From Balanoglossus misakiensis (lineage: Eukaryota; Animalia; Hemichordata), in the NCBI GenBank assembly GCA_040954595.2, contig CM082596.2:2780656-2844655 (forward strand): a stretch of 64,000 nucleotides of DNA, in the 5' to 3' direction. The position numbers were made by a program, and so were the translations under genes. Below, one piece after another: positions 23,058 to 58,461 of this stretch (position 1 is the first letter of the stretch; each line of letters starts with the position of its first letter). Under the pieces are notes generated by a model. The model searched no databases. It worked only from the letters and a program-made list of their open reading frames with translations, and had not been told where the DNA came from.

Positions 23058-23162
23058 ATGGCTAGCTTTCAGAGAGTACGACGTCTTGGTGTGACTGGAG
23101 TGGCCATAGCGGCTGGAGCCACAGCGGCCTTTTTGGCGTTGAATCGTTCTCAATTTTCAGAC
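23058..23162 (+). CDS. GPD2: GPD2 coding exon 1 (mitochondrial presequence MASFQRVRRLGVTGVAIAAGATAAFLALNRSQFSD)
   Basis: ATG at 23058 downstream of acceptor ttcag (23027); donor GTAAGT at 23163; basic/hydrophobic presequence. Confidence 0.88.
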
Positions 23163-26100
23163 GTAAGTTTTCTTCAGACATAAAAGCTCACAAGACTTAA
23201 GATGTAAGTCATCCGATCTCAAGCTGCTTTTATAATAGAGTGATAGGGACCACGGTTTGCACACACTTACTCTGTAACCAAGAAACTCCCCTCCAAGGGG
23301 AAACAAATCTTGAAAAAAGAAGCAAAATTCTGTTTTTCTTGAACAAAGCTAAACCACCGTAGTTGTTTGAAAAAATCAGATGTTATCAAACAAACTCTAA
23401 GATGGCGATGACTACGATAACAAGCCAAAAGTAAATATGTTTTTGATGGAAGGATTTCACGTAAAAGAAGGATGAAAAATGAGGGAAAAGCACAAGTTAT
23501 TTGTTTGATTAAGATGTATAGATGATAGGGCCTTTACTTCAGTTGGAAGATGATGTACAGTACATAGTAGTAGAGATCAATGGCTTTTTACCTGTAGTGC
23601 GTTGTATCCCTTGTTGATCATCCCATGGGATTTGGAATAATAGTTTTGGGGACTATTAAATATGGTAGAAAGGCACTTTCATTGGTCAGATTCTTTTCGC
23701 AATAGTTGGAACATACCAAACCAAACTTAAGAAGTTGTTGAGAAATTGACTTTTTTTGCTTTGACAGAGACAAACATTACATGTGAATGCAGCTGAGAAG
23801 CGGGTGATTCCACAGTACACGCCACTCCCCACAAGAGAAGTGCAGTTAAAATCTTTGCAAGAGACACCGGAGTTTGATGTCTTGGTGATCGGAGGAGGTG
23901 CTACAGGATGTGGTGTGGCGTTAGATGCTGTCAGCAGAGGTTAGTCTTCATGAACAATCATAATCAGTGTTGTAGTATAGCACATACATGTACTTGATTT
24001 TTCTGTGTAAACACGGTCACTAAACAACCCAGTTTTGTGGAGTAATCGTAGATTAAATCATCCGAAATATTCACCCGTCTCTGAGAATTAGGGTGAGGAT
24101 ATCCATGAAAGGGTGTTTGTGATCTGGTGCATTTAACATTTGATGCTTGATATACAATAGAACTGCAGAATTTGGTCTCTAACTTTTGTATGGTTGATCT
24201 GTGTGTATTTCTTGTGAGACCACAATACCCTTTATGTACTTTTCATTTTGTTTTTCCAGGTTTACGCACAGCACTTATTGAGAAAGACGACTTTTCATCA
24301 GGGACCAGCAGCAGAAGCACAAAACTGATTCATGGCGGTGTCCGATATTTACAAAAGGCTATTATGGGACTCGACTATGAACAGGTATGTAGAAACTTTG
24401 AAATACCGTGTGGAAACAATTGGGACATGGTTGAGTGGGGTTGGGGTTGGACCTCTATAGAGGGAACTGGGGGTGAAAGGGTTTATGGAAATCAGTCTTG
24501 ACTCACAAATTCTTGCAAAATTTGAACCGGTTTGACAGAACTCATTTGAGTATTATATAGAGTATTATGTGCTCAGAAATAGCCCTTGGGCAAATATACT
24601 TGTAGTGCATGTGTGTATTACAAAGTGAATGAAACTGCCATGCATTATGAATGATTCAGTTTCATTAAGATATATAACACGAAATGATGGCAAAGTTGAG
24701 TGTGTGACCATGACCATAAAAGAAAATGGAGTGTATTAAAAGTATCCTTCATAAAAGTGTCTTTAATTTGGCGTATGTGATTTTTACAATGTCTGTGACA
24801 GTATTTCATCTAGCCGACTGAATTGCATGATTTATGTAAATTTGGCAGGTCATGTCTTTCAAGTGTTCTGGGGGGTGGGAAGATGAGTCTGTCTGTCATT
24901 TATAAAATCATTTCACCCCCTCAAAACTAAAGACAGACATTAATCTCAGGGACTTTTTTAACAAGCGACGACTCAAGATAGTTTTATGTAATGGTGGACA
25001 CCACTGAATGTGTTATAATGTACAGTGGAGCGGACATGTGAGGTGTCTTTCGGCCTTCATTTGCATAATTGCCGTCCATAGTAGCGTGTTGTTCTAAGCA
25101 GGTTCTTTGGGCTCAAAGTGAAGTGAAATAGTGAGGCTGAGCAATCTTGGTCAAAAACACCTCATTGGCTACATTGTAGTGTCAACAAGCACTGTCAACA
25201 ACTGTGATGAAAGATACTCTTTAAGAAGAAAGGTGACTCCCATTGGCTGAAGAGTCACTCACCCGAAACCACAATAAATGACCCTGCCTTGTTAATTTGA
25301 CTACACGGGTATGTCACCTAAGAGTGCGATATTTTGGCGTGTGCGTTTGACATCATCAATCACCTTGTCCCAAAGAGACCCTAAAGGGAAGAGGATAATG
25401 AAACGGCAAAATGAAATAGAAGATACTAATGAACCCGCACTGGGAATCTCCACGTTCAAGTTCATTCACAAAAAATAGAGTAATTAAGTGTCAGATGTAC
25501 TTTGATAACAGCAAGATCTGGGGACATTTACAAGGTACGGTGGTTTACCAATTATAATAAAGATGGGCATTATCTCAATTTCCAAAATAAGAACTTGCTA
25601 CCTGAATGGGAAGGTGTTGACTTTCTTCAAAAATTGGTGATGTGGAAGAAAAATAAATCATGAGAAAAAAACTTGAGTGTCAGGATTTGGCTGGAAATTT
25701 GGTGCTTGTAGTTTGCTGTTCAATCCGTGAATAAGATTCGTTCGGCTGACACTTTCGTGTTCTGTAATGTAAAATCTGTGTTTTTTTAAGCTTGACTGCC
25801 TCTAAAGGTGCAACCTCTTGTCCTGAGAAACTTATCAGAGCGATGACACTGTGTGGTCGGTGTGTGCTGTGACGCCATCATCAAAGTCTTTTCATCTTAT
25901 TCTTTCTGATCGTATGGAATGGCGACCGTGTATCCTTGGATGAGAGACCGCCACCAGTAGTTTCAAATCTGGCTGGAACACGCGGGTGTTTGGCGTGCGT
26001 GTGAAACATCCCCCCAGCGGGACACCAAATGCATCATTTTTATCTGCATCGTTTCAATTTCCAGAAGTTTTTATAGACTTCCTCCCTTCACACTTCACAG

Positions 26101-29100
26101 TGCATTGAACAACAATGGAACAGCTCGGCAGGTTGCCAGGGAGCAAAATACGTTCCTCCTGGTGCAGCTTCCGGAGAACACTACAAGTTGCCCGCGACGA
26201 CGAATCCCATCCCTGCTGAGTCGTATTTTGTTCTATTTTCCCGGTCATGCATAACACCGCGATTATTATTCATGGTGCGGGGCCAGTGGGGTTAATCCGC
26301 ATGTGCGTCTGAGGTCAATTATCGGAGATTAAGTTGTATAAGCTGCAATTAATTTATCTTACTTTGATAACCTTATTGTTACCTTCATCTCTTCTCCATT
26401 ATTGATTAGGTTTTACGTTTAAATTATTGGCGTAATGGAGTATTGGGGATCGTAGCTTCCGGGTGAAATCAAATAAGTCTGTCATTGGTTCCATGATTAG
26501 CCATTGGAAACGTAATCAAAAATTGAATTAGTACAAGATTATCGGGAGAAATATATGATTACAAAGTAGCATGATAGACCATGAAGAATGATTATTTCGG
26601 TTGGAGTGTTTTATTTATTTTTGAAAAATTAAAAAAGAAGATTTTAATCAATTTGGAGATGTGGTGTTTGCAAAAATGCTGACACCCCCAGTTTTCATGT
26701 TTGATACACACACACACACCAGTCAGTCATTATTAGCAGCTGTTGTGTGGGAACATTCACATTTTTACTATTTTCTCAGTGCATTTTTTTCTTCAAATTG
26801 GAATATTCCTCTAGTTGTGGCCCTGAGAAGGTCAGTCAATTATATCAGGAGCTCCAGGTGGAAAAAAGGAGGTGGCGAAATGTGTCAAGGATTGACGCAA
26901 ACAAGTCTTGTGGAGAATAGCTTCATCTTGGTGAATAATTAGATCAGCGCGATAATGGCACCTCTTGACGACAGTCTGTGGGGCTCCGAGTACTCTGGGC
27001 AATAAGCGTAGAACTGGAATGATCACAAATGTCGTGGAAATAAACAAAACATGCTTGGAATGCATTCTGGCTGTTGCATCCCAACACGAAAACAGGGTCT
27101 AAAAAACCTGTCACAGCAAATGTTGTGCCCTATGCAGCATCAACATAACCTGGGAAAAAATGTACTCATTATCATCCAATTCAACCTCTTCAGTCAGATA
27201 TTTTTTTCCTGGTTCAGCAAACTCTATTTAAAACAACTACGTTAATGGCGAGACATCTAATCGTTTGTCTTGATGTTGTAGATGTATGGATTCACTTAAA
27301 ATTGAGTGTCGTTATATATTATTATGTATACCTGCATGATGGAAATTGCTTAGGGGGATGAGGTAGTTGTTCTCTCACTGAAAATAAATAAGACTTCTCA
27401 TACCCCCCCCCCCCCCTCCCCATAACATCATGCAGGTGCTTTTCATTTTCTCAAAACAGCAAGAGAAAAGAAAATCAATTTTTACAAGTGATACTAATCC
27501 AGCTTCTTTTTTCTCTCTCTTTCTCCTGTTTCCATGGCAACAGTACAAGCTGGTGAAGGAAGCCTTGCACGAGCGAGCCAACCTGCTTGCGATAGCTCCT
27601 CACTTATCAGATCCGCTCCCCATCATGCTGCCAATTTACAAGTAAGTACGCTCCCGACCATTAGTTTCTCCTCTTGACGGCGGCCACACAGAAAGCGGTC
27701 CCTGTTTCTTGTCAGTGTCTCAGTGTCAGCTCGGCGGAGACCCAGAAATCTCAGCTCTTGTGTTGTGCAGTTGTTTGGTGAAAGTACAGACAATTTCCTC
27801 TGTGCAATGACTCTGGGATTTTTTTCAGTTGTTTATCATGTATCTCGCGTTCAGACCCTGGGCACTGACTTAACTTGCCTACACCCATGCAAGCACATGC
27901 CTGCAAACACAAACCACCCCCCCCATCCCCTCTTCTGCCCCCCCCCCCCCCTCCCTCCACCAACCAAACTTCTGTGGAAAAGCACTGCGCATTTGAAAAA
28001 TGATATGGATTTTAATGAGAGCCCAGGAATTAATTCAATGTGGCTACACTATGAATATCATCTAGTTCACATTATTTCAGTTTATTACTTTGGGGTCCCC
28101 GGGGTCCTTCAAAATGGGAGGTCAAATACACTCATCCACTGTGAGATATCTTATTGGTGTGTTGAGAGGTAGCCTCCCTTATCAAGTGAGGGAGCTGTCT
28201 CTTCTGAAATACATGGAGTGGGCTGAGTTGATAACGTTTATTACGGAAGATTGTTGAAACACAGTGGTTTGCATAGACTGTGTTCATCTTCAAGGAAAAT
28301 TGATATATTTGAAGTGCTGATTTTGAGGAGTGACCCAGAAAATGTATTGTGTGTGTGTGTTACATGTATGTAACAATTGTGAGTATCTTGTATGTATGTA
28401 TGTATGTATGTACATGTACTACAACATGTGCATGTGCACCTGTATGTGTGTATGTGAATGTTTTCATGCAAATCCAAGTATGAGTGTCCATGCATTGTGT
28501 GTTAGAGGCAGAGCCCTGTGTGATACAGAAAAAACCCTCTAGCAAGTCAATTACACCAAAGCCTTGAGGCTGTTATCTCCGTGTCTGTTCCACCTTTCTC
28601 ACTTTCCAAATGACTCACTTGGCTTTCTCACCGGAAATTCACCAAAGACAGAGAAAAACAACTCTCTCCAACAACCCAGAGAGAGCATTAGACTCCGCAT
28701 CAGTCATTTCCAGTGCGATGCCACAGCAGATATTGTCGTCATCCTCCCAGAAAAAAAAAAACCTGAATATTTAAGACTAACCTGAGGGTACAAACAGGAT
28801 CCTGTTTGATGGTTCGGACGAAAACCACTCCATAAAAATCCCCCAGTGTGTGATAGCTGGGCGAAAGTTTTTTATCTTTCCTCGTATGATGGATCAATAA
28901 TTTGTTAATGGCCCGATCATAAAAATTCATATGATATATCAATCTTTTGTTGAAACAGATTTAAATCAAATTTAGGGCAGACTGTCTCCCCCGGTGTCTT
29001 CTGTAACGTTATTGTTCACTTCACGATGATAGCTCATAGTTAACGTGTTATGGTAATTTGCTTTCTGGAAACTAAAAATCTAACTCTGCAGTCAATATGT

Positions 29101-32100
29101 AATTTTATGTTTTGCTGCGTCATATTTGGAATTGAAATGGCTTTCAACGCTTGTTAATATGTCCTTACGGATGTAAAATGTTACAATGTAGAAATAAATA
29201 TTCCTCGTAAAATGTTAGGAAATTTTTTTAGAGTGCTCGTCAAGTCATAGAAACAAGCACCTACTGGAATGTGTTTGATTTTGATCTGAAGAAAGGCCTG
29301 CTTTTATAACTGTATTAAGGTCACCTTGATATAGTGTCGACATCAAAGAAATCAAGTTTTAAACCTTCAAAGTTCAATCCCATTTTTTCCAGGAAAAACT
29401 TTTTGTTTACTCTGTTTCATTTGTTGATTTTCTGAGAAATGTGACAGTAAGTACTCCATTTCTTCAAATTTCAATTTCATTCCATACATGCTTGTACATT
29501 GCAAAGGAAAACTTGATAGATATAAAAGTGGTAAAGCTGAGGTCCGATTATGCCTATGAAAGGATAATTTACCAGAAATGGTTTTCTCCTCAAATCCTTA
29601 CTGATGGAAGTGATAAATTTCTGCTGGAAGATGAGATTTACAATTCAATTTTGCGAAGGAGTTCGGGTGACCAGGCAGATTTCGCGGCGTTGTGTATTTA
29701 TGGTTGCGTATCGCTTTCATTCCTGAAATCCGGTCTTCAGAAATGACGAGAGGATTAATAACATTGATGGGATAGAGACTGCAGATCAGATGAAAATAAA
29801 TCCACAGGTGAGAACAAGACCGCGATAAATAAACACAGAAGACTGCAGGCAAGCTGGAACACTGTGCTAACTGTATCATGTCCTGATACGAAAAAATTCT
29901 CAACGACTCGTATTTCAAACCGAGAATGAAAAGTACAGTGCCAGTGTAGAGAGATATCTACAATTCCCCAAACGGCCTCAGATTTACCTGAATTCATGTG
30001 TGTCATGTCAGTGGGTATTCTGAGCTGAACATTGCCATTGCACAATTACGTTTATTTGGTCCCGATTTTACACAGAATGTGCAAATGAGCCATGCACATA
30101 ATAGGGTGTCTTCATTGCCAATAGTTCAGCTTCCTTTCCGGGAATTTTTGTTCCTGTCTTCCAACAGCAGTCTGTTGAGATAGTGTCTGCTTGATTGAGG
30201 TTCAGAAGCTATTTTTGCGTGTGGGTCTTTATAACAACGTCCAGGAGATTTTGTAATTTCGCGTCTTGGGTTGTGAATGGTGCATTGTGGCAGATCACAA
30301 TGGTGTATTATAAGCAAACTGGTTCACTGGTCTGGAATCAGTTTTCAAGACTGAAATAAGATGGGCAGATTCACAGACTAGAAGGCACGAATAAACGGTC
30401 GAGACAGATAGATTTGAGAGTCAAAATGTGAGCAAATTTGGTCGGTTGACTGATTTGAGAAAAAACACAATTGGAGTTATGGGGGGAGGTAGATGGATTA
30501 ATACAGTACAGAGGTAAATTTTGCAGGATTTCTGAGCATCAGATGAACGAGGGAAGATAAATAGATACCAGTTGAAAAGAAGACTTGGAAGAACAAATGT
30601 TTTAGTGAGTACGACCGTGAAGATAACCTGAGACTTTGAAGGTAAAATGTCACTAAGGAGATTGGTTTTATAGATCTTTAGCGTTGCTTCCTCCAGTTTT
30701 CTTGTCATTTTGCCGAGTTAATGTGTTATTATGAAGATAAAGGAAATCTTGACAGGCTTGGGTTTTACAACCTCTGGGAGAGTGACAGCCATAAATTAGC
30801 AATGGTGTAAAAATATGCCGTAAATCTTCCCAGCTGCAAAATTGATAGATGATGCTGTTGTTTTTTGCCTTGAACCCGGCTTGCCACAGATCAATCAAAA
30901 ACCACATCATTGGCGTGTTTATCACCAAGTCGTTATGGAAACTTAGAAATTTATAAAGATGCATCAGGATGTGTGAATGACAGGAGCTGTTAAGTGGTTA
31001 GAGAAGGGATACTAGTATGCCATGCACTGCCAGCCGACTGGCCTTATGTTTCCTAATAAACAGTTCTACATACAGACAAAAGTGTAACATACAAGACGTT
31101 TAACTGTGCTAGGGGATTCTAGGGGGTACAAGTTCTTTTTAAATGATTAATAAAAATGTTTATTGGGTCGTTTGTGTTTGTTGTTTACTTAAGTGTCTTT
31201 GCATCCATTATATGACCTTGACATGTTGAGATTTTATTTCATTTATTTCAAAGAACCTAACCAAATACTCTTATTGAATCGTTAAACCATTATTAAAAAT
31301 AGAAAAAACTTCGAAAAGAGCTGACATAAACTTTTACATGATACAGGCTCAGAATTAATGTGGAATACAAATTTTAATGGATGTTGGGTTTATTGCTTCA
31401 TTCAGCATTGAGGAATGAATTTACGAAATTCAAAAACGGAACCTGTTGAACTGAAAACTGTTATCCCGTGGAGAGAGAGAGAGTCCCTGTGAAGCATGCG
31501 CACTTATAACCAGTCGCTGAAGGCTGAGTTTTTTTACGCGTTTGTGGCGAATAGTGGCTACCATGGTGATGGATATGTGCGATACTTTCTTGTGCGGTGC
31601 CTTTGATTGAACTTGATTGTCAATTTTTTGCCCTGAAGTACAGGAGTTAAGTTAAAAATCAATGCCAGAGATAGGAGATTAAAGAAGGACAAATATTGAA
31701 TCCGAATTATTTTCCCTGTGAGTTGAAAGGAGACAGTTCTGCCCTGTGGAGGCTCCAGTGAGCATATGAAAGCAATTAGTTAATTTCCTTAGACGTGAAA
31801 AAATGCCCATGTGCAAGGCACGATGTCAAGGTGAACAAAAATTGGTGATCAATTTATAATTTTGACTGTTTCCTTGTTTTTTCTCACATAAGACACATAA
31901 TTTTTTGCATTATCTATAAACACGAGGTTTGACTGTGTTGTGAACAGAAAAAGAGTTCGTCGCTGAAAGAAACCAGGTCAAAAATTTTGCTGCAGAAACT
32001 GACAAATCCATGAATTCACTTTATGGTGTGAGATGGACTGCACAGATTACAGGCGCAGAAATGTGTAACACAAATTCCATTTATGATAGCCTGATATACT

Positions 32101-34278
32101 AGAGATGTGACAAGAGATTATGAACACAGCAACTCGCAATGTCGCATCGTATGAGTGTTGTGGTTGTGTGTGTGGGGGGGGGGGGTAGATAATGCAGTTG
32201 GATTTAGTTACATTGATGTAATTAAATGAATGGATTTGGGACAGCTAAAACTGTGTTGCATTTATTAATTATTACGCATTTTGTTTTCACTTACATTCGT
32301 GGGGAGTGTGCAGTGCATATGTGTGATTGAGCTGCCGTATATGGTAGTTTCAATTATTATAAATGTTTTATTGTGTCCATTTCCCGAGACATAATTACAC
32401 CCTGGAACCGATCACATTTTGTTCAGTTACTACCGGGGAAAATACCTGTTTTTTGTTGTGTGTGTGGAGAATCTGGGCTATCTTGTGTAATCAAGCATCG
32501 TTCCAATTTTCACTCTTGCACATCGGGTTCACGCGCAGTGTGGCACATTCTTTGCATCTCGCCGAGGGCCGGACAATCTTCTGCAAGAGTGAATGAATGA
32601 TCAGTAACCGTGGAAACAGAATGGTGGAGTAATTCTCGCTTTGAGTGTGTGTTTTGTGCGTGCGGGTCTGTCTGTGTGGGTCTGTGATTGTGTGCTTGTG
32701 TGAGTGTATTTGTGTAATGCACCGAGCCCAGTTCGAATCGAATCATTAAAGATGCACTTGAATACTAGTTCCCGAAAATACAAGAAGACTTCATCTTTGT
32801 GCATGGCTTGTGCCTTATAAAAAATATTTCTCTACGGATACTAGGTTTTTAGCCTTCACTGGCACAAAATATATATTTATCAACATGCAGACCAATTTTT
32901 AGCTTGAAAATTAATGGAATTGCTGGTAACAGCTGCTGATGATAAACATACATGTACATTGCAGTGACATGTGTCAATAATATAAAATGAATGAAAAATT
33001 GCATGTGTATATCGAAATCTGAATACATACCAGTGATATGAGAAAATGTGTAGGATAAAAATATGTGTTCAAGAGTAATTTTGAATGTATGAATATTGCA
33101 GAGATTTCCTAACGAGGGTAAGCTTGAGGTTTTGGTTATCACTTGAACTCAGACCAAAATATTTTTTGCTCAAGTTTTTGTACGAAAATACAGAACACTG
33201 CCTGTGAACAGATTTGTGGTGGAGTATAAAATTGTAACTGTGCGTGCCAAACGTGGCGACAAGATCGATTCCTATTGCTAACACATGGCGGGTACATGTG
33301 ACAAATTATACTGCTGGTGTTTGTCACACATGTTCGCTGGAATGAAAATGTTTTGACCCCTTGTTCAAAACAGTGGTGTTTATTCCATTTACAGAATAAA
33401 TGGTTTTCGCTTCATCTGTCCGTTATTGAATTTCAACGTTTGTGTAATCTACTGTATGATTCTTATTCACAATTGTCATATTGAGTCTTTCGCTTAATGT
33501 TTGGTTTTTGTCATTTTGTTTTGGACAGGTGGTGGCAGCTTCCGTACTTCTGGGTGGGCATCAAAGCGTACGACATTGTCGCTGGGAAACAATGCTTGAG
33601 AAGCAGCTACTTCCTGTCAAAATCCAAAGCCTTGGAACACTTCCCCATGTTGAAGAAAGATGCACTTGTTGGAGCGCTCGTGTATTACGACGGTAAGTGA
33701 AATGAGCGCCCTCAATAGTATAAGGAGTCGTATCAAATGTGTGGTGCGCCCTCTGGCAGCGGTTTACAAAATGTGAACATTTAAAGAAACAAATCTCTTT
33801 GATAAATGAAGTCTTTACCACACCATTCCTTAGGTCTGTTGTGAAGTTCAGCTCGAGAAATAATGGCATAGTTTTGTGGTCCATTAGTTGTTGCACACAT
33901 TTTAACCAGATTTGCGACATTCGTGTTGGCTAGTGTAGTGCTGACACATTTTCTGTACTTTTGCCCCATTAAAATATCTGACCCTTCAGGCAGACACAAT
34001 GATGCTCGGATGAACATGGCCATAGCACTGACGGCAACCCGCCTTGGAGCAGTAGTGGCCAATCATACCGAAGTATTAGAATTGCTCAAAACGAAGTCTG
34101 AAGATGGTAGAGACGTTGTTAGTGGTGCCAAGGTCAAGGATGCCATGACAGGTAAAAAGAAATTTTCTGTAGAATAATTGGTGACACACAGAGAAAAGGG
34201 CTTTTGTTTTGGGGTGACTTCCAGCCCCATCAGCATCAGTCCTCCTCAGACGTAAAGTTCCCTTTGTTTTTCAACACT

Positions 34279-34350
<72 letters not shown>

Positions 34351-37300
34351 GGTCATGAATTCAAGGTCAAGGCAAAAGCAGTCATCAACGCCACAGGTCC
34401 GTTCACAGACACTATCAGACAGATGGCTGAACCGACAACGAAAAAGATCTGTCAGCCCAGCGCGGGAGTACACGTGGTTTTGCCCGGTTATTACAGGTTA
34501 GTGATCAGTGTCACAAATAAGCAAACTAGGTCTTCTCATGACTTAACCACTTTCAGCCCATTTTCAATGGACAATATCAGTCTGTTCAAACTTATTAATT
34601 TAGAAATTTATTATTATCATTTCTGTTTTTCTTTATAGTCCAACGTCAATGGGATTACTGGACCCAGCCACCAAGGATGGTAGGGTGATATTCTTTCTTC
34701 CCTGGGAGCACAAGACCTTGGCTGGCACCACGGATACACCGTGCGAGGTCACCGACTCGCCAACTCCAACCGAGGAGGAAATACAATTCATCTTGGATGA
34801 AATCAAGCACTACCTCAGTCCTGACGTCCAGGGTAGGTGGTCTGTTATGTGTACGTGAAATTTTGAAATTCTTGTTCTGTTAGGCTGGCTGCTATGCACA
34901 TAGCACATAGTGTGATTTATTTCAGTCTAATACAAATCTCTCTCTTTCTCTCTGTGTATGTTTGTCTCTCCCCCTGTGCAACTTAACAAACAACTGTACA
35001 GTGAGGCGAGGTGATGTATTGGCCGCTTGGAGTGGTATAAGACCACTGGTGACAGACCCCAAGGCCAAAAACACAGAGTCATTATCCAGAAACCATGTGA
35101 TTGATGTCAGTCCCTCAAATCTGATCACAATTGCAGGTGAGTCCATACACTTTCTCTTCTATTGACCCATACAATATAACATACAAATGTTTATTATACA
35201 AATCTGCATATAGACAGCCAAGCATCACATTGAAATGTCATATTTCCAGGTGGGAAGTGGACGACATACAGGTCCATGGCAGAGGACACTGTTGACGCGG
35301 CTATCAAGGCTTGCAACCTGGAACCGAAGACAAAATCTCAGACAGATGGGATGTTGTTGGATGGTGCCGCTGGATGGACTCCGACTATGTTTATCAGACT
35401 TGCGCAAGACTTTGGTCTGGAAAGTGAAGTATGTATATTTACAGTTTTAGTGAATTCTGCGTGATTGCGTGTATTTTGGTAGATGTGCCTGGGCTGCCAC
35501 ATGCATGCATTCTTGATCAGTACACCATTGACCAACCCTTGACTTGTCAGGATCATTACTACATCCATGTTCTTTTCTTTTCTCAGGTCGCACAACATCT
35601 TGCCAACACCTACGGGGACCACGCCTTCGAAGTGGCCAAGCTGGCCGAGTTGACTGGCAAGAGACAGCCTGTTGTCGGAGTCAGGCTAGCGGAAGAATTC
35701 CCTTATCTAGAGGCTGAAGTAATCATACTTATTATCACATCTAGTATCTGAAAGATATCTTTTCTAGCTTTTGTATTGTTGCCTGTAATTATTAAACCAT
35801 AACACGTACATGCCCATTTCAACACAAGGTTGAGATACTGTTGAAAGTTGATTTTTAATTTTTTTTCCGAATTTTGTCTCCTTCAGGTGAAATTTGCAGT
35901 GAGGGAATATGCCTGCACTGCAGTGGATGTCCTTGCCAGGAGAACTAGGTTAGCATTCCTGAATGCACAAGCGGCTGAAGAGGCTGTCCCAAGAGTTGTG
36001 GAACTCATGGCTAAGGAACTGGGCTGGAATAAACAGAGACAGAAGGTGAGGGTGTCATAGTCCAGTGGATAGACCAGTGGACTCATGAACGGAGGATTAT
36101 GGGTCACAATGTCAGAGCGCTTTCATTTCAGAGATTCATTCTTTACTGTTATGCATGCATCGAGGGTGTGATGCTGATGTGTATTCAGGATGTCTCTGTA
36201 TCTAATCTTTCTCTTGGTCTCACAGGAAGAGAGAGAAAGAGCCGTCAAGTTCATCTATGAACAGATGGGAAGCAGTTGCCATGAGAACCTGTTGAGGATA
36301 CCCATCAACTTCAGCGAGAGCGAAATCAAGACGTACTCCAGAAAGTTTGACAGTCTTGACACCGAGAAGAAAGGCTTTATCACATCTGTGGACATCCGGA
36401 AGTATCTTGATGTAAGAATTACTTTTTAGTAAAATTCTACCTCATTTACTGTAATATAGAAGTAATATTTATGGGAGGGGTGTATGTTTATTAAGATCAG
36501 ATTTTTACATTAGCATGATTAGTCCTGTCTTGATTGGGTCGGGGTGTTCATATGAATTTGTGAGATTTTGCATCTGGACTTGAATTGAAATGTTGCCATC
36601 CTGACTGTGATTAATTCTGAACTTCGTGAAAGATTCACTGTTGAATGTAGTTATCACGCCAACAGATACCTTGTTTGTGCGAAATCAAAGGTAGGTGTAT
36701 GCCTTGGAAAATTAAAACAAATGTTGATGAATTTTCAACTTGTATTGTAAACTTTCACAGCCACAAACTGCAAAGAAGCCCAGATCAGATACTGTAGTCG
36801 TCGAAAATAGGTAAAGTGTGTCGGATTGTCAAAATGTCAACAAAAAACCCTAACTAATACTGTTCTGTACCCTTTCGTGGTGTCGTGTGGAATCTGATCT
36901 CTCTGCTAACCCCCAGTATTGACAGCACTTGTAACAAACATGGATGACTATTTCTCTCACAGCTCAAATGCTCCACATGGAATGCACTGACAAAGGGGGT
37001 AAATGGGTCTCTGCTATAAACTCGGCAAGGCACTGCAAGATGACATACAGTTCAATTTCACTTCTGGCATATTTGGAATTCGAAACAAAAATAACATTGA
37101 TTGAAACTAAACCCATTTCAACCAATTAAAAACTGTACATGATACAAATGTATGCCTTTCAAACATCAATGGCATAGAGATTACTGATGGTAGCTTATGA
37201 GGTTTTAAAGTACATTTCCCTCAAAATTCCATTCAAACTTTTACTTTTAATTGAGCCCGATCTAACCAACTAAAGTGAAAGCCAAACTGTAAATAAGTCA

Positions 37301-38505
37301 AAAGACGCGAGGGACCGTTCTGGTTTTAGGAACTGGATTGGACCGGATCTGACCTCATCCATCCACAGGTGCATGAAACTCTTGCCAGTTTTATTTTTAT
37401 CGCTTCGGTTTTCTATTTTTTTAGAATATTGGCGAAAATGTCACTGAAGATCAGCTAAGGGATATGATGAACGAAGTAGATTGTAACAAGAATGGACAAA
37501 TCGAAAAAGATGAATTCTTGCAGGTCTCTTTAACATTTCTTTCTTCTTTTTCTGTCTTAATTTTGTGAATGCTTCTGTCCTGTCATCTCTCTCTTCCTCA
37601 TAAGGTGAGCAGCACCGCCATAACAAGAGTAAAAGTTTGCCTCTGATTGGTTGAAAATAATAGCAATCCCACCATCAGCCAATCAGATTTATTGTTCTTT
37701 ATAAAACAGCACAGAATGCTTCCATCTTGACATTCTGTGTCAGACTTCCCTGCCGATTTCCGTCTTTCTGTTTCTATCTATCAGTTGGCAGTATAAAACA
37801 AAACAATTAGTCATGCCATGAAAGTATGCGTTTCAGAAAAAAGCAAGATAAGTTTGAAAAAAAAACACTTGCAAACTTTTAACAACACCACAAACTCTCA
37901 ACAGACTTACCGGTACCTTATTCTGTTGGTCTAACCTTCCTACCCATGTACATGTATCTGTGTTGTCTAACCTTTATTTATTATTACAATGAGGCTAATC
38001 ATGACGGTCATGTAGTGATGAGCACCAAACACACCATAGTACTGAGAAACCATTCACTTGTAACAAGCATGCCATGTTTATGCACACATTGACAACTTGA
38101 TGTCATTTACCTCAAGTCTGTTAGTTTGGCACCCAAGAGCATGGCATGTTTTGTTACAGTACAGTACATCATGTCCTAGTCTAAATAAAATCAACAGTTT
38201 TTCATGCTGAGGCTTGATTTTGTCCACTGTATGTATTATAACATTTCCAAAAACATTGATTATATTACAATTATTTTTAAAAATTCACTGTTTCCGTTTT
38301 GAAAATGTACTGTTCGAAATTTCATGATGTCAACTCTGAATGAGGAAGGTGAGTGACTTCTGTAATGTTGTTTCTTCTTGGACAGCTCATGAGCGCCCTG
38401 AAAACTGGAGCCCTTGCCCACAGCCGCCTCGGAACAGCGATCGCTCTCGGTGAACAAAAACAGAGAGTGGTCATCTCTACGGAGCGCAGTGGTGGTGGTG
38501 TGTAA
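23058..38505 (+). CDS. GPD2: Glycerol-3-phosphate dehydrogenase, mitochondrial (FAD-dependent); 15 coding exons, 724 aa
   Basis: join(23058-23162,23768-23939,24260-24384,27544-27641,33529-33692,33990-34151,34352-34496,34639-34832,35002-35136,35250-35428,35587-35718,35887-36045,36226-36411,37425-37523,38386-38505) = 2175 nt, all GT-AG and phase-consistent. Motifs: FDVLVIGGGATGCGVALDA (FAD-binding), SGTSSRSTKLIHGGVRYL, INATGPFTD, DGRVIFFLPW, WSGIRPLV, GGKWTTYRSMAED, C-terminal EF-hands DTEKKGFITSVD and DCNKNGQIEKDE. Confidence 0.97.
23768..23939 (+). CDS. GPD2: GPD2 coding exon 2 (FAD-binding GxGxxG)
   Basis: RQTLHV...EFDVLVIGGGATGCGVALDAVSR; AG/GT flanks. Confidence 0.95.
24260..24384 (+). 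CDS. GPD2: GPD2 coding exon 3
   Basis: GLRTALIEKDDFSSGTSSRSTKLIHGGVRYLQKAIMGLDYEQ. Confidence 0.96.
27544..27641 (+). CDS. GPD2: GPD2 coding exon 4
   Basis: YKLVKEALHERANLLAIAPHLSDPLPIMLPIYK. Confidence 0.96.
33529..33692 (+). CDS. GPD2: GPD2 coding exon 5
   Basis: WWQLPYFWVGIKAYDIVAG...GALVYYDG. Confidence 0.96.
33990..34151 (+). CDS. GPD2: GPD2 coding exon 6
   Basis: GRHNDARMNMAIALTATRLGAVVANH...KDAMTG. Confidence 0.95.
34279..34348. repeat. (CT)n microsatellite forming a GPD2 polypyrimidine tract
   Basis: abuts the acceptor CAG at 34349-34351. Confidence 0.95.
34352..34496 (+). CDS. GPD2: GPD2 coding exon 7
   Basis: HEFKVKAKAVINATGPFTD...GVHVVLPGYY. Confidence 0.96.
34639..34832 (+). 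CDS. GPD2: GPD2 coding exon 8
   Basis: SPTSMGLLDPATKDGRVIFFLPWE...YLSPDVQ. Confidence 0.96.
35002..35136 (+). CDS. GPD2: GPD2 coding exon 9
   Basis: VRRGDVLAAWSGIRPLVTDP...LITIAG. Confidence 0.96.
35250..35428 (+). CDS. GPD2: GPD2 coding exon 10
   Basis: GKWTTYRSMAEDTVDAAI...RLAQDFGLESE. Confidence 0.96.
35587..35718 (+). CDS. GPD2: GPD2 coding exon 11
   Basis: VAQHLANTYGDHAFEVAK...EFPYLEAE. Confidence 0.96.
35887..36045 (+). CDS. GPD2: GPD2 coding exon 12
   Basis: VKFAVREYACTAVDVLARRTRLAFLN...WNKQRQK. Confidence 0.96.
36226..36411 (+). CDS. GPD2: GPD2 coding exon 13 (EF-hand 1)
   Basis: EERERAVKFIYEQMG...FDSLDTEKKGFITSVDIRKYLD. Confidence 0.94.
37425..37523 (+). CDS. GPD2: GPD2 coding exon 14 (EF-hand 2)
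   Basis: NIGENVTEDQLRDMMNEVDCNKNGQIEKDEFLQ; weak donor GTCTCT. Confidence 0.93.
38386..38505 (+). CDS. GPD2: GPD2 last coding exon
   Basis: LMSALKTGALAHSRLG...STERSGGGV-stop (TAA 38503-38505). Confidence 0.94.
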   Translation, partial: LMSALKTGALAHSRLGTAIALGEQKQRVVISTERSGGGV

Positions 38506-40359: not shown

Positions 40360-41754
<1,395 letters not shown>

Positions 41755-41759
41755 CTTGA

Positions 41760-42170
41760 ATCTTCCGTGGAGTGAAATAGGAAGTGACGTCAGCTGTAAA
41801 CCTGAGACATGACCTCTGTGTGAGGGCGCTGTAAAGGGTCACCTTTGCCAACTTTTCCCAGCTGTAATAAAACTTTCAATGCCAATTTCACGTAATTTAA
41901 CGAGCTATTCATGACATGACTTGTAAGTTGCCAAGCTGTCAGCACCATGTAAACGCCGTTGCATGGAGAGACGTTGGTAAGTTCAACGCTTCGATGTTTA
42001 GCTTTGAAACAAACGATAGCGTCGGTCGAGATAATGTGGTAACCATGACAGCCAAAACGCCGTTGCTCATTTGTCTTCTTATTAATAATTGATTTGACAA
42101 CGTGTGAATTTGTCGCCTACTCTGAAAACGAACATACCAATTAGTTTATCAATGGGTTGCCTTGATTAAC
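41760..42170. promoter_or_regulatory. Shared promoter region of SEC61B (-) and the KIF9-tail gene (+)
   Basis: ETS-CRE composite GGAAGTGACGTCA at 41780-41792; RFX X-box-like GTAACCATGACAGC at 42039-42052 and GTTGCCTTGATTAAC at 42156-42170; + donor TTG|GTAAGT at 41977. Confidence 0.6.
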
Positions 42171-42704
42171 TTGTGGTTCAGTAATAGGTTTTGCAGTCCT
42201 GATGGAAATAGTGCAGGCCATTATTTCTTCTTCCAAGTTGTGCATTTATCCACAGGCAGGGCTTACACAACCACAAAGGGGTCTTTAGGATTGCACCAAT
42301 TTAGCTATGTTAGAATTCCTATCCTGAATTCAACAGCAAAATGGAAAGCTCTGGGGCAAATGCATGGCTTCTGACACCCCACATACCAGACAATGGGAAA
42401 TTCGAGTGTGACTTTTTGATCCATTATACTTACATGAAAAACACTCTTTGCTTCCTATACTTGTACTTTTTGTAAGTTTTTTTTCTTTTTGATATATTTT
42501 AATCATCAAACTCAAGTGTCTTTAGTGAATAAAGTGACTTGGTAATTACTGATTAGTCATTCTGAACTAAACCATGATTTACAACCTGGCAAATGGCCAA
42601 TAATGGACAGCCATTTTCTGCTCTCTGAATCTGTGCCACTTTACCCCATGAAACAGGAGTGGCAATTGAGATCCTGAACACTGGAACAGAAGCAAGGCAG
42701 AAGA

Positions 42705-42942
42705 ATGGCAAGCGAGTATACTTTGAACAGTCAGCCACTGCCTCGGCGGGCCAGCGCACTTTCAACAAGATCACACTTGGAATCCCCGATGACGAGTTTC
42801 CGGACGGAATCTGGGAGAGAAAGTGAACTCAGCATTACGATCACAGAGAGATCAAATTCCCCGCCGACAAGAAGTCAAGCTTTTGAAATATTCAAACGTG
42901 GAAAAGGAAGTGAAATAAATAAGGTCTTCATAGATAATAAAG
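42705..42942 (+). CDS. KIF9-tail gene coding exon 1
   Basis: MASEYTLN...SPPTRSQAFEIFKRGKGSEINKVFIDNK; in-frame TGA at 42675-42677 upstream of the ATG; donor GTGAGG at 42943. Confidence 0.78.
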
Positions 42943-44302
42943 GTGAGGAGATGATATATTAAGATTTATGTGTGTGGGATGAACTTTACACTCAAGCCTC
43001 GATGACATAAAAGACTAATTACTGTGAACAAGTCCCTCAAAGAATTTTCCATTTCTTTGTAGAAATACTGTACTCTAAGAAAACGGAGTACAGATACCTT
43101 GCCAAGATAATAAATGGTACCAAGAGAGCCATCGATGAGACAAAAGTGAACCTTGAAAAGTCAAGAAAAGAAAGACTTGAAAAAGGTTGGTTGCATAACT
43201 ATTTTTAGTGAAATAATATAGCCGTAAAACTCACACCATTTTTTTCTTCACATAACGTCCCTCTTCACTTACATTGCTGCAGGAGAATTCGCAGATGAAC
43301 ATGGAGAGGTTATCGAGGAAGAAGAATATTTGTTGATGACAAAGCTGAAGGAACTGAAAATGTCATACAGGGGAGATTATGAAGACCTGCAGAAAATCAA
43401 AGTTGAAATCGACTATTGCCAGAAACAGGTCAACCAGTGTAGGGAGAAACTAGTGAATGGTGAGTGGTTGCCATGGTGTGGCTATCTGTAAACAAAGTGA
43501 TTACTGTGGTATCTCAAATGTTGTCATCTTTGAACTGCATGTAAATCAGAAATAACTTTACAGGTTTTTACAGTATAGTCTTGGGAGTCGGAATGATATT
43601 AATTTTGTAAATTCTCTGTTTTTTTGCGACAGCGTTTGAGGTCTGGTATGCGGATGATTTTCAGATGTGTTATAGTCTCTCTGAGCTTGAAATGAGTGGC
43701 AGAGAAAGTGAAATAAGGTGTGATACGAGCTGTAGTTGTGGCAAGCAACATCAGACAACAGTGAGTAGCCTAATACATTTCTTCTTCAGTGCAGAGCGCC
43801 CTCATGTGTGGTGTCTCCCTCAGTCCTTTTGTTTGAGGGGTGTACATTCTGAGCAAGCACAGCAGTGAAACTTTTACACAGCATAAATGCAATGTTTGGT
43901 GTGCATATCAGACATGCATAATACTATTAACACACTCTCCCATTGTTTCTTTCAAAGCCCGAAGATGAAACAGAGAAATTTGAAAGATTACAAGAAGAAC
44001 TGTCGACAGGAGATTCTGAAGCAATGCCATTCCTGACAGCGAAGTCGAGGACAGAAAAACGGGTGAGGACACGAAAATCATTTTGAATGATATTAATAGG
44101 ACATCGTTCTTGTACAGGTAGCAGATAAGACACTGTCTTTCTTGTACGTGCTTGTGAGTTCTGAAGTTCTATTTTTCCTAATTTTGTCTTTCAGCACAGT
44201 CACAAAGGGTCTATTTCACTGCCACAGAATCCCCACGTGAGGTCGAAAACGCCCAAAAATTCTCTTACCTCGAAACCAGGGAAAAAGTCGAAGAAGCCGT
44301 GA
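42705..44302 (+). CDS. KIF9-like protein consisting only of the C-terminal coiled-coil tail (no kinesin motor domain); 6 coding exons, 292 aa
   Basis: join(42705-42942,43063-43185,43283-43459,43633-43760,43958-44062,44195-44302) = 879 nt, no internal stops. SPPTRSQAFEIFKRGKGSEINKVFIDNKEIL...IEEEEYLLMTKLKELKMSYRGDYEDL...EIDYCQKQVNQCREKLVNAFEVWY...EDETEKFERLQ is colinear with the vertebrate KIF9 tail as I recall it (AFEEFKNEQGSEINRIFKENK...IDEEEF...EIQYCQHLVDQCRHRLLMEFDIWY). Confidence 0.85.
43063..43185 (+). CDS. KIF9-tail gene coding exon 2
   Basis: EILYSKKTEYRYLAKIINGTKRAIDETKVNLEKSRKERLEK. Confidence 0.85.
43283..43459 (+). CDS. KIF9-tail gene coding exon 3
   Basis: GEFADEHGEVIEEEEYLLMTKLKELK...EIDYCQKQVNQCREKLVN. 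Confidence 0.88.
43633..43760 (+). CDS. KIF9-tail gene coding exon 4
   Basis: AFEVWYADDFQMCYSLSELEMSGRESEIRCDTSCSCGKQHQTT. Confidence 0.82.
43958..44062 (+). CDS. KIF9-tail gene coding exon 5
   Basis: PEDETEKFERLQEELSTGDSEAMPFLTAKSRTEKR. Confidence 0.82.
44195..44302 (+). CDS. KIF9-tail gene last coding exon
   Basis: HSHKGSISLPQNPHVRSKTPKNSLTSKPGKKSKKP-stop; AATAAA at 44474-44479. Confidence 0.72.
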   Translation, partial: HSHKGSISLPQNPHVRSKTPKNSLTSKPGKKSKKP

Positions 44303-45668
44303 GACTGTCAATGTGATTGGCGCGTACAACTCACCATGATTGTTCATAAGTAAGGTGTGTGCTGATTGGATGAAAAAATAACCATCACCAGGGCTAATGT
44401 TTAGTCAGCCAATATCTTTTGTCCTTACTACTACCCGACCAAGCTTGTATCAAGTGTGAACATTGAAAATGCAAATAAATCCAGTTAATTCTTATCCTAT
44501 AAGGACCATCTACACTTAAATGATTTGTATCAAGCTGTTCGATTTTCATCTTAAAGGTGAAAAAAAGTGATCAGGTAAAATTAAATTCATGTTGAAAAAT
44601 GAATGAAAATTCCGAAATGAAAAACAACTTCTGAAGTGCCAACATTTGTACTTGCAATGCAATAATGTGTGAAAATTTGGATTGTGGATATAGTTATGCA
44701 CATTACTTTGATACGAGTTCTATTTTTGTGACTTTTTCTGTGAATCTTTTATGAGTGGCTATTATATTGTGTTTGTTTTTTTACTGCATTTTACATGAGT
44801 GGAAACTTCATTTACACAAAAACACTTCAAAGTTATATTTATTTTTTCAGGCACCAATTGTACTTTTCAAGTAGAAAAAAATATTTACTCTAAAGTATAT
44901 GCCAGTGTGGTCGTTATTTTTATCTGGTCCTCAGATTTCTGTAAGGGGTAGAACAATGTCAGACCGTCTTCTCCAACCAAGATCTGTCAATGCAGGCATT
45001 GTTGATAGTGGAGGGTCTGCAGATTTGCCCTCAACAACATTTGCGTCAGATTCTTTGTTTTCCAAATTATTCCAGATCCCACTTACCTGTTTGGGAGGCC
45101 TTCAAAGAAGACTTGTCCTTAGTAATATAGATCAACATCACACTTGCTACATAAAATGGGCTCAACACAACTTTATTGCTATCTCCCTTGTATGTGGTTG
45201 ATATTTCCGCAAAAAAGTAAATTAACACACACTCACATGACAAAATATGAGAAACTAAATCCACGAAAAAAATCATGGATTGGATAAATGGCGTTTATTC
45301 AGATCAAGCCACAAAGCAAATGGTATTGTGCAAGCGACAAAAGTCAAAACTGATATTAAATATAACAGCAAGCCATCAGCTTCCCCCTAACTCAAGTGTT
45401 ATGGAAGAGAATGTCTATCTGTAAACATTTTACGTCTGATTAGAACCCTGTCTGAAGAAAAGTACAGTAAGTCTGATATGTACAAACACACTTTTGATAT
45501 CAACTTATTTTCTCCAAAAGATGTGGTTGTTAAACTTGGGAAAACTGGTAAATATCTGCAAAAGTGTAGATACGCGGTACAAATACTTGGATTCGAGAAG
45601 TGCTACTTATCCTGCAAGTTTGTAGTTTTTCGCGTATCCATCGAATGGTTCGTTTCTGTCGTTCACGA

Positions 45669-56437: not shown

Positions 56438-58461
56438 GGTCGAACACTGCCGATGTATAGAAAGGGGCCGGGAATCGAGCGACTTGGAGAGCGTTGTGCG
56501 AGCCTGCCTGCCACAGATATACCGCCTGGTGCTTCTCCTGTGTCTTCGGAGACGAGAAAATCTCTGTTGAAATATAAGTACATCATATCGCTTATTTATT
56601 TATTTATGACAAAGCAGTGGTCATGTGACTTGTCACTATGAAACGATATCCTCCGTCTCAAGTATACCGTCCCGACAGGCTTTGAGCTGATCATTTTGAT
56701 CAGTTCCCTGAGTGATATACGAATCGGCGTATCGCTGTCACGACAATCGTATCTTTTTTTCTATATACCTTCGCAAATATGCCTCGAGGGTTCAACCGGT
56801 TTTAAATGAAATTAAACGGCAATTTTTTCAATTACTGCAAATGCGGATTGTGGCGCCAGTATGTGATCTAACGAGAGCCCCTCGAAATTTAAAATAGAGA
56901 AATTCAACGTCTTCCTCTCCCTCTCTCTCCTCTGCCTGACCCTCCCTCCCTCCCAATACCGTTCTAATTATATTCCTTTCCGATTTAACCTGGTCAATAA
57001 CATAATATATAGCAAGCAATCGACTTTTCACCACCAAGAGGTCAGAGAGATATGACCTATGCAGGTGGAACAGACAAGTGTTACTATATTCGTTCGCAAC
57101 AAGCTAAGTACAGCGATCAATAATAACCCGAAATCGAATCTGGATCCCAGACAGAAGAGTACAAAGAAATCAGGCAGAGATGCATATTTAGTATTTACTA
57201 TAACGTTCATGTTAGCTATATAGTTGCTGACAGAAAATCCGAGTCTCTCACCCTGTTATAGATAAACCGAAGAAAGTACATACTGATTCTATAGTTCGGT
57301 TTGATGGGAGCAAACATACTGTCGTGTTAATTCCAGACCTTTCAAAGTTTAAAATAATGCATGAATTGTTCGTACATTTCGGCATACTTGCGAAATGAAA
57401 TGTGTTACATGTACACACCACGAAGAAAATTAAAAATTATAAGGTTCCTTTCTCGAAACCTTAATAATAATTTGATGTAATCCATTAGTTCATAACGGCG
57501 GCTAGTACAAAAGTTCGTTGTCATAGCAATACATGTATCTCTAGCTAATCTATGAACGTATATCCAACATAGGAATAAATATTTCAATATGAATCATCCA
57601 GAATATCTTTCAGGCAAGATTGGCAGTACGCCGACCCTCGCTCATCGTTCGCAAGAATTGCCATCATACCCATCCATAAGATCATAGGTCATTTATCACG
57701 TTGTCTGGTGTTTCGAAAATAGTAAGCAGTCCTGCCCACCAGTACATTCCACCGCTGCCAACTTTAGATCCATTTTATTCAAATCACAAGCATTCTAGGC
57801 CTGAATAATTACACGCAAAGCTAGAGTTGCAAGTTGTGCAGTCTAAAAGACAACTTAAACATCTGCTAATCCATCAGTCGACAGTTACTGTCGCCCGTGT
57901 CTTTAACCAGATGGTGTATCTGAAAAGCCAGTGACTAATGAAGAGAATTATTCATTTCTAATAATTCCGTGCTGCATAAATCATTATCATATTCATAAAT
58001 TTTCAATAAGGGTTGGTTTAATCCCCTTTCTGTAACATTACATCTGTGGTGTCTGTCTTCTGCTTTTTTTTTGGGGGGGGGGGGAGACCTCCCTCACTCA
58101 TCATAGATAGTCGATCGTTTTTTGATGATTTGATATCCTTTTGTCGAGATGCATTTTCCGATGATTTTCTCGCGCTGCATGTTTCCGGACGAGACGCCAA
58201 ATTAAAACTGTCACACTGTGCAGCAAAATTGATCTGTTGTTGTAATTTTGCGCGTACAGGTTGAGACTTCCTGTTCTGTTGTAACGCAACGGCCGCTAGG
58301 CGAAAAGGAAACTTCGTGAAACAACAAATCAATACATATAGTTAGGCCAAAAGAGTTTACGTTGAACACGATTACTTTCTATTTTAATTAGTATGGTTGC
58401 CGTATCCCGTATGTCTCATTATATATATCGAGTTATGCTGGAAGTGTTCTTTGGACGCCTT

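What the first reader, a model, noticed from the sequence alone, without database searches (positions are those of the whole stretch)
42705..44302. Motor-less kinesin-9: an intact gene encoding only the KIF9 tail
Seen: six canonical exons splice in frame to 292 aa. From about residue 50 the sequence follows the KIF9 C-terminal tail motif by motif, after an unrelated-looking Ser/Thr-rich leader. No motor motifs (GxxxxGKT, SSRSH, DLAGSE) were found upstream, only ~950 bp separate this ATG from the opposite-strand SEC61B ATG, and an in-frame TGA lies 30 nt before the ATG. Known: KIF9 is an N-terminal-motor kinesin-9 associated with motile cilia and sperm flagella (central apparatus). Inference: a partial duplicate kept by selection (clean frame and splice sites despite strong divergence) that could be a structural axonemal component or a decoy competing for, or heterodimerising with, full-length KIF9. 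I do not know of a described stand-alone KIF9-tail gene.
Basis: partly seen in the sequence, partly recalled or inferred. Interest (0 to 1): 0.8.

Follow-up and report, generated by a model that had tools for sequence, protein, structure and literature searches.

The report
Headless kinesin gene in acorn worms
This intact gene, which has a close counterpart in the acorn worm Ptychodera flava, encodes only the tail of the cilia motor protein KIF9 and no motor; it likely arose by copying the back end of the KIF9 gene, and its product would most likely sit at the KIF9 tail's docking site in the core of beating cilia as a passive strut or competitor.

Summary
Confirmed. Six GT-AG exons give 292 aa that carry only the KIF9 C-terminal domain (PF23735). 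No kinesin motor exon lies in the 64 kb; upstream are SEC61B (minus strand) and a complete GPD2-like gene (plus strand). Ptychodera flava RefSeq holds a motor-less orthologue (290 aa, 218 of 293 columns identical, same start Met), auto-named 'KIF9'. All five introns match intron positions of other animals' KIF9 genes, so this is likely a DNA-level partial copy. Listed allelic differences are 10 silent to 2 replacement, so it is under purifying selection. The orthologue's model overlays the mouse KIF9 tail in the sperm central apparatus (2.1 Å over 144 residues), the part reported to bind CFAP65. Best reading (0.4): a motor-less tail that docks on CFAP65 at the C2a base. Heterodimerisation is less likely because the neck coil is missing. 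Not shown: expression, localisation, and a separate full-length KIF9 in this genome, so gene fission stays open. Precedent: plant headless myosins; my searches found none described for kinesin-9. New variant of a known kind; interest 0.45.

The parts
42705..42942 (+). Coding exon 1: 48-residue Ser/Thr/Arg-rich leader (predicted disordered), the RxS/TPP-like motif from 42849, and the first helix of the KIF9 tail domain; phase-1 intron follows
   Evidence: intron shared with 15 of 21 KIF9 contexts
43063..43185 (+). Coding exon 2: first long helix of the tail hairpin
   Evidence: PF23735 26-63, E 6.8e-05; helix 68-119 in the orthologue's model
43283..43459 (+). Coding exon 3: second long helix of the hairpin, best-conserved part
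   Evidence: PF23735 71-124, E 1.5e-14; acceptor shared in 23 of 26 and donor in 24 of 26 KIF9 contexts
43633..43760 (+). Coding exon 4: end of PF23735 and an acidic, Cys-containing loop
43958..44062 (+). Coding exon 5: two short C-terminal helices of the KIF9 tail; phase-0 introns on both sides
   Evidence: both borders shared with 8 of 10 genomic KIF9 loci
44195..44302 (+). Coding exon 6: basic, predicted disordered end (net +9) and stop
42675..42677 (+). In-frame TGA 30 nt before the ATG; not among the 3 differences of the other allele's contig that spans it
42762..42776 (+). Switch-I-like pentapeptide in the leader, probably chance
41755..42704 (.). Interval between the two divergent ATGs; likely shared promoter, with candidate 5' UTR donors at 41923 and 41977 and a candidate acceptor near 42657 (untested)
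44474..44479 (+). Candidate polyadenylation signal
40360..41754 (-). SEC61B, four coding exons, 96 aa, head to head with the gene
   Evidence: PF03911; model
23073..38505 (+). GPD2-like gene (FAD glycerol-3-phosphate dehydrogenase with EF hand) that ends with its own stop upstream of SEC61B, on the same strand as the tail gene
   Evidence: PF01266, PF16901, PF13405; translations

Best explanation
The gene encodes a motor-less copy of the KIF9 tail, likely made by DNA-level duplication of the last six exons of KIF9, and its protein would most likely dock through its helical hairpin on CFAP65 at the base of the C2a projection of the ciliary central apparatus, as a passive strut or competitor of KIF9 tails. 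Shown: the open six-exon frame, no motor exon in the window, a motor-less orthologue in P. flava, five shared intron positions and an excess of silent allelic changes. Predicted: the hairpin fold. Inferred: that a full-length KIF9 exists elsewhere in the genome, that the gene is driven from the SEC61B promoter region, that the protein enters motile cilia or sperm flagella, and that it keeps the CFAP65 contact. If so, it would fill tail sites without coupling them to a motor on the C2 microtubule and so tune the beat.
For: Orthologue P0001 (XP_070570626.1 and XP_070570627.1, one protein under two accessions, longest contig 44 Mb) starts at the same Met and has only PF23735 above cut-off. Identity is 116 of 141 in the domain and 31 of 49 in the leader. 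P0001 keeps 46 of the 54 columns that are at least 80% conserved in 22 other KIF9 proteins. Intron 1 is shared in 15 of 21 contexts, intron 2 in 23 of 26, intron 3 in 24 of 26, introns 4 and 5 in 8 of 10 genomic loci. One of these loci, L008, also carries motor exons. Of 40 listed allelic differences (86 in all), 12 are coding: 10 silent and 2 replacement, against 180 and 696 sites, p 5.9e-06. The model has pLDDT over 90 for most of residues 51-190 and matches mouse KIF9 chain 9ijj_c best: Foldseek E 1.2e-08, Z 12.7, 2.1 Å, 144 residues, KIF9 570-714. The mouse KIF9 C-terminal coiled coil binds CFAP65 in different conformations (PMC12297659 passages; preprint 10.1101/2024.08.06.606614 passages). 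A long stem (0.89) with short tips (0.10, 0.12) in a quick tree fits release after duplication followed by renewed constraint.
Against: No expression or localisation data were obtained. The promoter has no outstanding RFX X-box: its best site ranks 15th in the window (consensus recalled). A full-length KIF9 in this genome or in P. flava was not retrieved. The CFAP65 contact residues could not be read from the tools, and the tail is more diverged than other deuterostome tails (exon 3: 44-45% mean identity to 27 invertebrate contexts against 57% for lungfish), so the contact may be lost. Z 12.7 is only about 1 above unrelated helical hairpins, so the fold match rests largely on the 44% sequence identity. 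How a motor-less tail would reach the central pair is not explained. The selection count omits 46 unlisted differences, some likely in exon 1, and comes from one sample.
Confidence: 0.4

Rival explanations
1. Soluble brake: the free tail binds the KIF9 motor in trans, copying tail-to-head autoinhibition, or titrates tail partners in the cell body, and so limits how much active KIF9 enters cilia.
For: Full-length Xenopus Kif9 did not bind microtubules in vitro, whereas Kif9(1-461) did (10.1101/2021.08.26.457815 passages). Kif6 is autoinhibited by its tail (PMC11334332 passages). The tail gene keeps the whole region after the linker, including a basic end.
Against: Mouse Kif9 showed no microtubule binding even without its C-terminus, so autoinhibition of KIF9 is disputed. 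Inhibition in trans needs high concentration (general knowledge). Not tested here.
Confidence: 0.2
2. Repurposed adaptor: the copy kept the helical hairpin as a generic coiled-coil scaffold and now works with other partners, not tied to KIF9 or the central apparatus.
For: Long stem branch. A new, conserved leader and Cys-containing loop. It sits head to head with a housekeeping gene and has no strong X-box. Arabidopsis headless myosin-11E2 is expressed without a visible phenotype (PMC3850447 passages).
Against: 46 of 54 KIF9-conserved columns are retained, more than a generic coiled coil would be expected to need.
Confidence: 0.2
3. Gene fission: KIF9 is split in this lineage into a motor-neck gene elsewhere and this tail gene, and the two products reassemble.
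For: No full-length hemichordate KIF9 sequence came back or 24 (of the 149 other listed hits, only 20 were looked up for names). Shared introns fit fission as well as duplication.
Against: Searches returned no full-length KIF9 from any species, so the blank reflects search sensitivity. Faster divergence fits a spare copy better than a sole tail. Another enteropneust, Schizocardium, has a gene annotated Kif9 (PMC13554239 supplement rows; length not given).
Confidence: 0.08
4. Heterodimer partner: the protein pairs with full-length KIF9 to give a one-headed motor.
For: [quoted passage not shown]
Against: The same paper places dimerisation in the neck coiled coil, which is absent here: similarity starts at mouse KIF9 residue 569. 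The long helices fold back on each other within one chain in the model.
Confidence: 0.07
5. Not a stand-alone gene: these are the last exons of an ordinary KIF9 whose motor exons lie outside the window or were displaced in assembly.
For: A weak in-frame AG at 42688-42689, downstream of the TGA, could formally accept an upstream coding exon. No cDNA was seen.
Against: It would need an intron of over 42 kb spanning a complete same-strand gene and SEC61B. An independent assembly and annotation gives the same start Met. Contigs of X1 have depth in all 30 bins of 41650-44500 with no joint.
Confidence: 0.05

Closest known systems
KIF9 / KLP1 (kinesin-9A), C-terminal domain PF23735; mouse chain 9ijj_c
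   Same: Tail sequence (E 5e-39 to mouse KIF9 569-788), predicted fold and five intron positions.
   Different: No motor, neck coil or middle region. A 48-residue leader with its own Met. Cannot hydrolyse ATP or step, by absence of the domain.
Ptychodera flava XP_070570626.1 / XP_070570627.1, auto-named 'kinesin-like protein KIF9'
   Same: Orthologue by similarity and tree: 218 of 293 columns, same start and end, motor-less.
   Different: Public model only; its lack of a motor is not discussed in any paper my searches found. Synteny with SEC61B not checked.
Plant headless myosin XI genes: Arabidopsis myosin-11E2 (HDK) and Poales myosin-11E4
   Same: Separate genes holding only a motor's tail, from partial duplication, with shared intron positions (PMC3850447 passages; PMC3935558 passages).
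   Different: Myosin rather than kinesin. 11E2 lies in tandem with its parent, whereas no KIF9 motor lies within this 64 kb. The expected partner here is an axonemal protein rather than a cargo adaptor.
Headless Myo10; Kar3 partners Cik1 and Vik1 (recalled, not read)
   Same: Non-motor relatives that regulate a motor.
   Different: Headless Myo10 is an isoform of the same gene. Cik1 and Vik1 keep a motor-like fold and the dimerising coil; this protein has neither.

Membership tests
Kinesin superfamily / kinesin-9 | Kinesin motor domain (PF00225) with P-loop, switch I and switch II | tested here: not met
   No PF00225 in P0001 while full-length P0151 has it. No motor exon in the window. Only a 5-6 residue switch-I-like string, without the Asn.
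Kinesin superfamily / kinesin-9 | Neck coiled coil that dimerises the heads | tested here: not met
   Similarity to mouse KIF9 starts at residue 569. Residues 1-50 have no helix in the model.
KIF9 tail domain proteins (PF23735) | PF23735 above the gathering cut-off | tested here: met
   P0001 133.7 bits and window exon 3 alone 54.7 bits, cut-off 31.9.
KIF9 tail domain proteins (PF23735) | Helical hairpin as in the mouse KIF9 C-terminal domain | tested here: met
   Predicted model of the orthologue against 9ijj_c: E 1.2e-08; Z 12.7, 2.1 Å, 144 residues.
Headless motor paralogues from partial duplication | Separate gene with its own start, tail exons only | tested here: met
   same start in P. 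flava.
Headless motor paralogues from partial duplication | Intron positions shared with the full-length gene family | tested here: met
   All five introns, against other animals' KIF9 rather than this genome's.
Headless motor paralogues from partial duplication | Full-length parent present in the same genome | not testable with these tools
   No genome held. Longer-protein searches returned no full-length KIF9 of any species.
Headless motor paralogues from partial duplication | Transcribed and translated | tested here: inconclusive
   No RNA run listed. Two RefSeq accessions for one protein and the silent-change excess are indirect.
Central apparatus C2 proteins | Localises to the central pair and binds CFAP65 | not testable with these tools
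   Known for the mouse KIF9 tail; no hemichordate CFAP65 sequence was available.

The most novel reading that the evidence does not exclude
Acorn worms have a dedicated motor-less kinesin-9 subunit of the ciliary central apparatus. It occupies KIF9-tail sites on CFAP65 and uncouples part of the C2a projection from the KIF9 motor array, giving a cell-type-specific beat (sperm or larval ciliary bands). It would be the first natural separation of KIF9's structural role from its motor role. A bolder version, a KIF9 split into two genes, is not excluded either (about 0.08).
Probability: 0.3. Interest if true: 0.7.

Novelty: new variant of a known kind. Interest (0 to 1): 0.45.

Why it matters
Whether KIF9/KLP1 acts on the central pair as an active motor or as a structural link is disputed: Xenopus Kif9(1-461) moves slowly, mouse Kif9 showed no microtubule binding, and the tail's contact with CFAP65 was only recently seen. 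A tail-only gene kept by selection would show that the tail has a job without the motor, and it offers a natural reagent to test this. It also flags an annotation trap: a 290-aa protein named 'KIF9' in RefSeq is not a motor. The range so far is two species, which limits the reach.

Tried and rejected
Whole genome: none held. Expression: no RNA holder listed. Complex job, two copies of P0001 residues 46-266: no verdict (score 0.15, mark 0.32), not used either way. Other tail-only relatives: the near-length search gave only P0001 among 517 candidates; the longer search gave none among 2060; metagenome scan with P0001 alone gave none of 90. Of the 149 other listed hits, 20 were looked up. Two short ones cluster with full-length KIF9 (P0002, P0066), one is marked partial, and several lie on contigs of about 1-2 kb. 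One 307-aa fish model (TNN60529.1) and three short ENA or Logan models on 14-67 kb contigs (P0025, P0016, P0106) could not be judged, so other tail-only genes are not excluded. Leader origin: best of 33 KIF9 linkers (L056) scored 178 of 20000 shuffles for the window but 19013 of 20000 for P. flava, rejected as unproven; Atlas search of the leader gave no usable hit. Switch-I relic: a switch-I profile was matched or beaten by 72 (P. flava) and 449 (window) of 5000 shuffles, and the alignment spans 6 residues only; treated as probably chance. RFX X-box scan: no enrichment. Tree: the careful search did not finish; quick tree of 59 of 110 tails, sister group unresolved. A first pattern for exon 5 found nothing and was corrected. 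Papers: no paper held P. flava with KIF9 or kinesin-9 with 'lacks the motor domain'; searches listed nothing on a motor-less kinesin-9 (listings only). Supplements of PMC11618098 and PMC12768270 had no KIF9; only 12 of 42 files of PMC12297659 were searched, so its figure on the CFAP65 contact was not seen. dN/dS between species could not be computed: no P. flava DNA.

Full report
Observation. The six exons named under parts are bounded by AG and GT and give 879 nt, 292 residues and one terminal stop. Exons 1-3 match the KIF9 tail family PF23735 in order. An in-frame TGA lies 30 nt before the ATG. SEC61B starts 951 bp upstream on the other strand. Beyond it, a GPD2-like gene fills 23073-38505 on the plus strand and ends with its own stop. 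Downstream is an LDL-receptor-class-A repeat gene on the minus strand.

No motor nearby. A profile of 27 full-length KIF9-like proteins finds only the four tail exons among all six-frame ORFs of 15 aa or more. As a control, a profile built without the bivalve protein P0151 found 23 of 24 pieces of 25-35 aa cut from its motor at E 0.012 or better; the best non-tail window ORF scored E 1.8. Contigs of run X1 have depth in all 30 bins of 41650-44500 and show no joint. X1 and X2 are one sample and may be the source of the assembly, so this is weak support.

An orthologue. Exon 3 retrieved one protein, P0001, 86% identical. It is Ptychodera flava XP_070570626.1 and XP_070570627.1, 290 aa, auto-named KIF9, with PF23735 as its only family above cut-off. 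It aligns end to end with the window's protein: 218 of 293 columns, same start Met; 31 of 49 in the leader, 116 of 141 in the domain, 71 of 103 in the rest. The window is therefore most likely from an acorn worm (inferred). Two assemblies giving the same motor-less frame make an artefact unlikely.

Origin. A metagenome scan with a KIF9 alignment gave 63 loci; 13 of the 63 hold motor exons in the same contig. Intron 1 sits at the same codon and phase in 15 of 21 distinct contexts; 3 of the 6 misses are intronless, transcript-like records. The acceptor of intron 2 (allowing a one-residue gap) is present in 23 of 26 contexts and the donor of intron 3 in 24 of 26. Introns 4 and 5 match in 8 of 10 genomic loci, two of which encode the same peptide; 5 further loci are intronless. 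L008 carries a motor and shares introns 2-5. So the gene descends from genomic KIF9 DNA, not from a retrocopy. In some loci the linker and the RxS/TPP motif lie in one exon, as here; in others an intron splits the motif. The leader may thus be diverged linker, but no linker matched it reproducibly. Whether a full-length parent survives could not be tested. Duplication is preferred over fission because the tail diverged faster than other deuterostome tails (exon 3: 44-45% against 57% for lungfish and 50% for camel, over 27 invertebrate contexts) and shows a long stem with short tips (quick tree, 59 of 110 tails, sister group unresolved). Schizocardium has a gene annotated Kif9, length not given (PMC13554239, supplement rows).

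Selection. Of 86 allelic differences in 41650-44500, 40 were listed. Twelve are coding: 10 silent and 2 replacement. Against 180 silent and 696 replacement sites this is pN/pS near 0.05, binomial p 5.9e-06. None of the 12 listed indels (24 in all) is exonic. The 46 unlisted differences include some in a contig with 19 differences over 42755-43048, so exon 1 is under-sampled.

Structure. The orthologue, folded with a 91-row alignment, has mean pLDDT 77.5: a low-confidence leader, helices 55-64, 68-119 and 132-194, a loop, helices 225-239 and 241-262, and a low-confidence basic end. Its best matches are the KIF9 chains of the mouse sperm central apparatus (E 1.2e-08; Z 12.7, 2.1 Å, 144 residues, KIF9 570-714). 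Unrelated hairpins reach Z 11.6, so the sequence match (E 5e-39) carries the assignment. The window's own protein was not folded.

Mechanism. In mouse sperm the KIF9 C-terminal coiled coil binds CFAP65 in different conformations and forms part of the base of C2a (PMC12297659, passages; 10.1101/2024.08.06.606614, passages). In Chlamydomonas the heads dimerise by the neck coil and the tails link dimers into an array (10.1101/2022.01.23.477438, passages). The tail gene keeps that domain, with 46 of 54 conserved columns, and lacks motor and neck. I therefore infer docking on CFAP65 as a passive strut or competitor (0.4). Rivals are a soluble brake on KIF9 (0.2; disagree on autoinhibition), a repurposed adaptor (0.2), fission (0.08), a heterodimer (0.07) and an artefact (0.05). 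Nothing here shows expression or localisation, and the promoter has no outstanding X-box.

An oddity. The P. flava leader holds SSRSHC, the same six letters as switch I in many KIF9 motors, and the window has STRSHL. S[ST]RSH arose in 9688 and 2955 of 2,000,000 shuffles of the two leaders, but a profile test was weak, the Asn is missing, and the match was noticed after the fact. I treat it as probably chance and leave a motor relic open.

Comparison and novelty. By the defining motor domain this is not a kinesin; it is a PF23735-only protein. The closest kind is the headless myosin XI genes of plants, tail-only partial duplicates with shared introns (PMC3850447, passages; PMC3935558, passages). 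My searches found no description of a motor-less kinesin-9 gene (the library lacks most subscription papers). The model is public but misnamed. Verdict: real, selected, so far known from two species; new variant of a known kind; interest 0.45.

Noticed in passing
window 42762-42779: Switch-I-like hexapeptide in the leader of both species (STRSHL here, SSRSHC in P. flava); probably chance, possibly a motor relic or mimic.
   Followed up: partly
window 42690-42704: The five codons before the ATG, after a weak AG, resemble the start of the linker exon in L056; not significant after 33 comparisons and not testable in P. flava.
   Followed up: partly
window 43720-43745: A Cys-containing motif in exon 4 (CDxSCSCGKQHQT) is conserved with P. 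flava and absent from the other KIF9 rows of alignment A2; a possible lipidation or metal site, untested.
   Followed up: no
window 44063-44117: A second donor at 44117 would extend exon 5 into an in-frame stop and give a shorter product; 5 listed allelic differences fall in 44080-44113, as expected for intron.
   Followed up: partly
window 41752-41754 (minus): The first coding exon of SEC61B holds only the ATG; a CRE-like and an ETS-like site lie at about 41780-41793 (motifs recalled).
   Followed up: no
window 45754-56500 (minus): Gene of single LDL-receptor class A repeat exons (PF00057) with a signal-peptide-like exon near 56237-56446, converging on the tail gene.
   Followed up: no
window 46788-46960: High-copy short repeat inside the LDLa gene (depth over 11,000 in that bin).
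   Followed up: no
L033, L035: GC donor at the conserved KIF9 intron 3 position.
   Followed up: no
L008 and L010: The KIF9 intron near position 1 lies about seven codons upstream of the usual site in these two loci.
   Followed up: no
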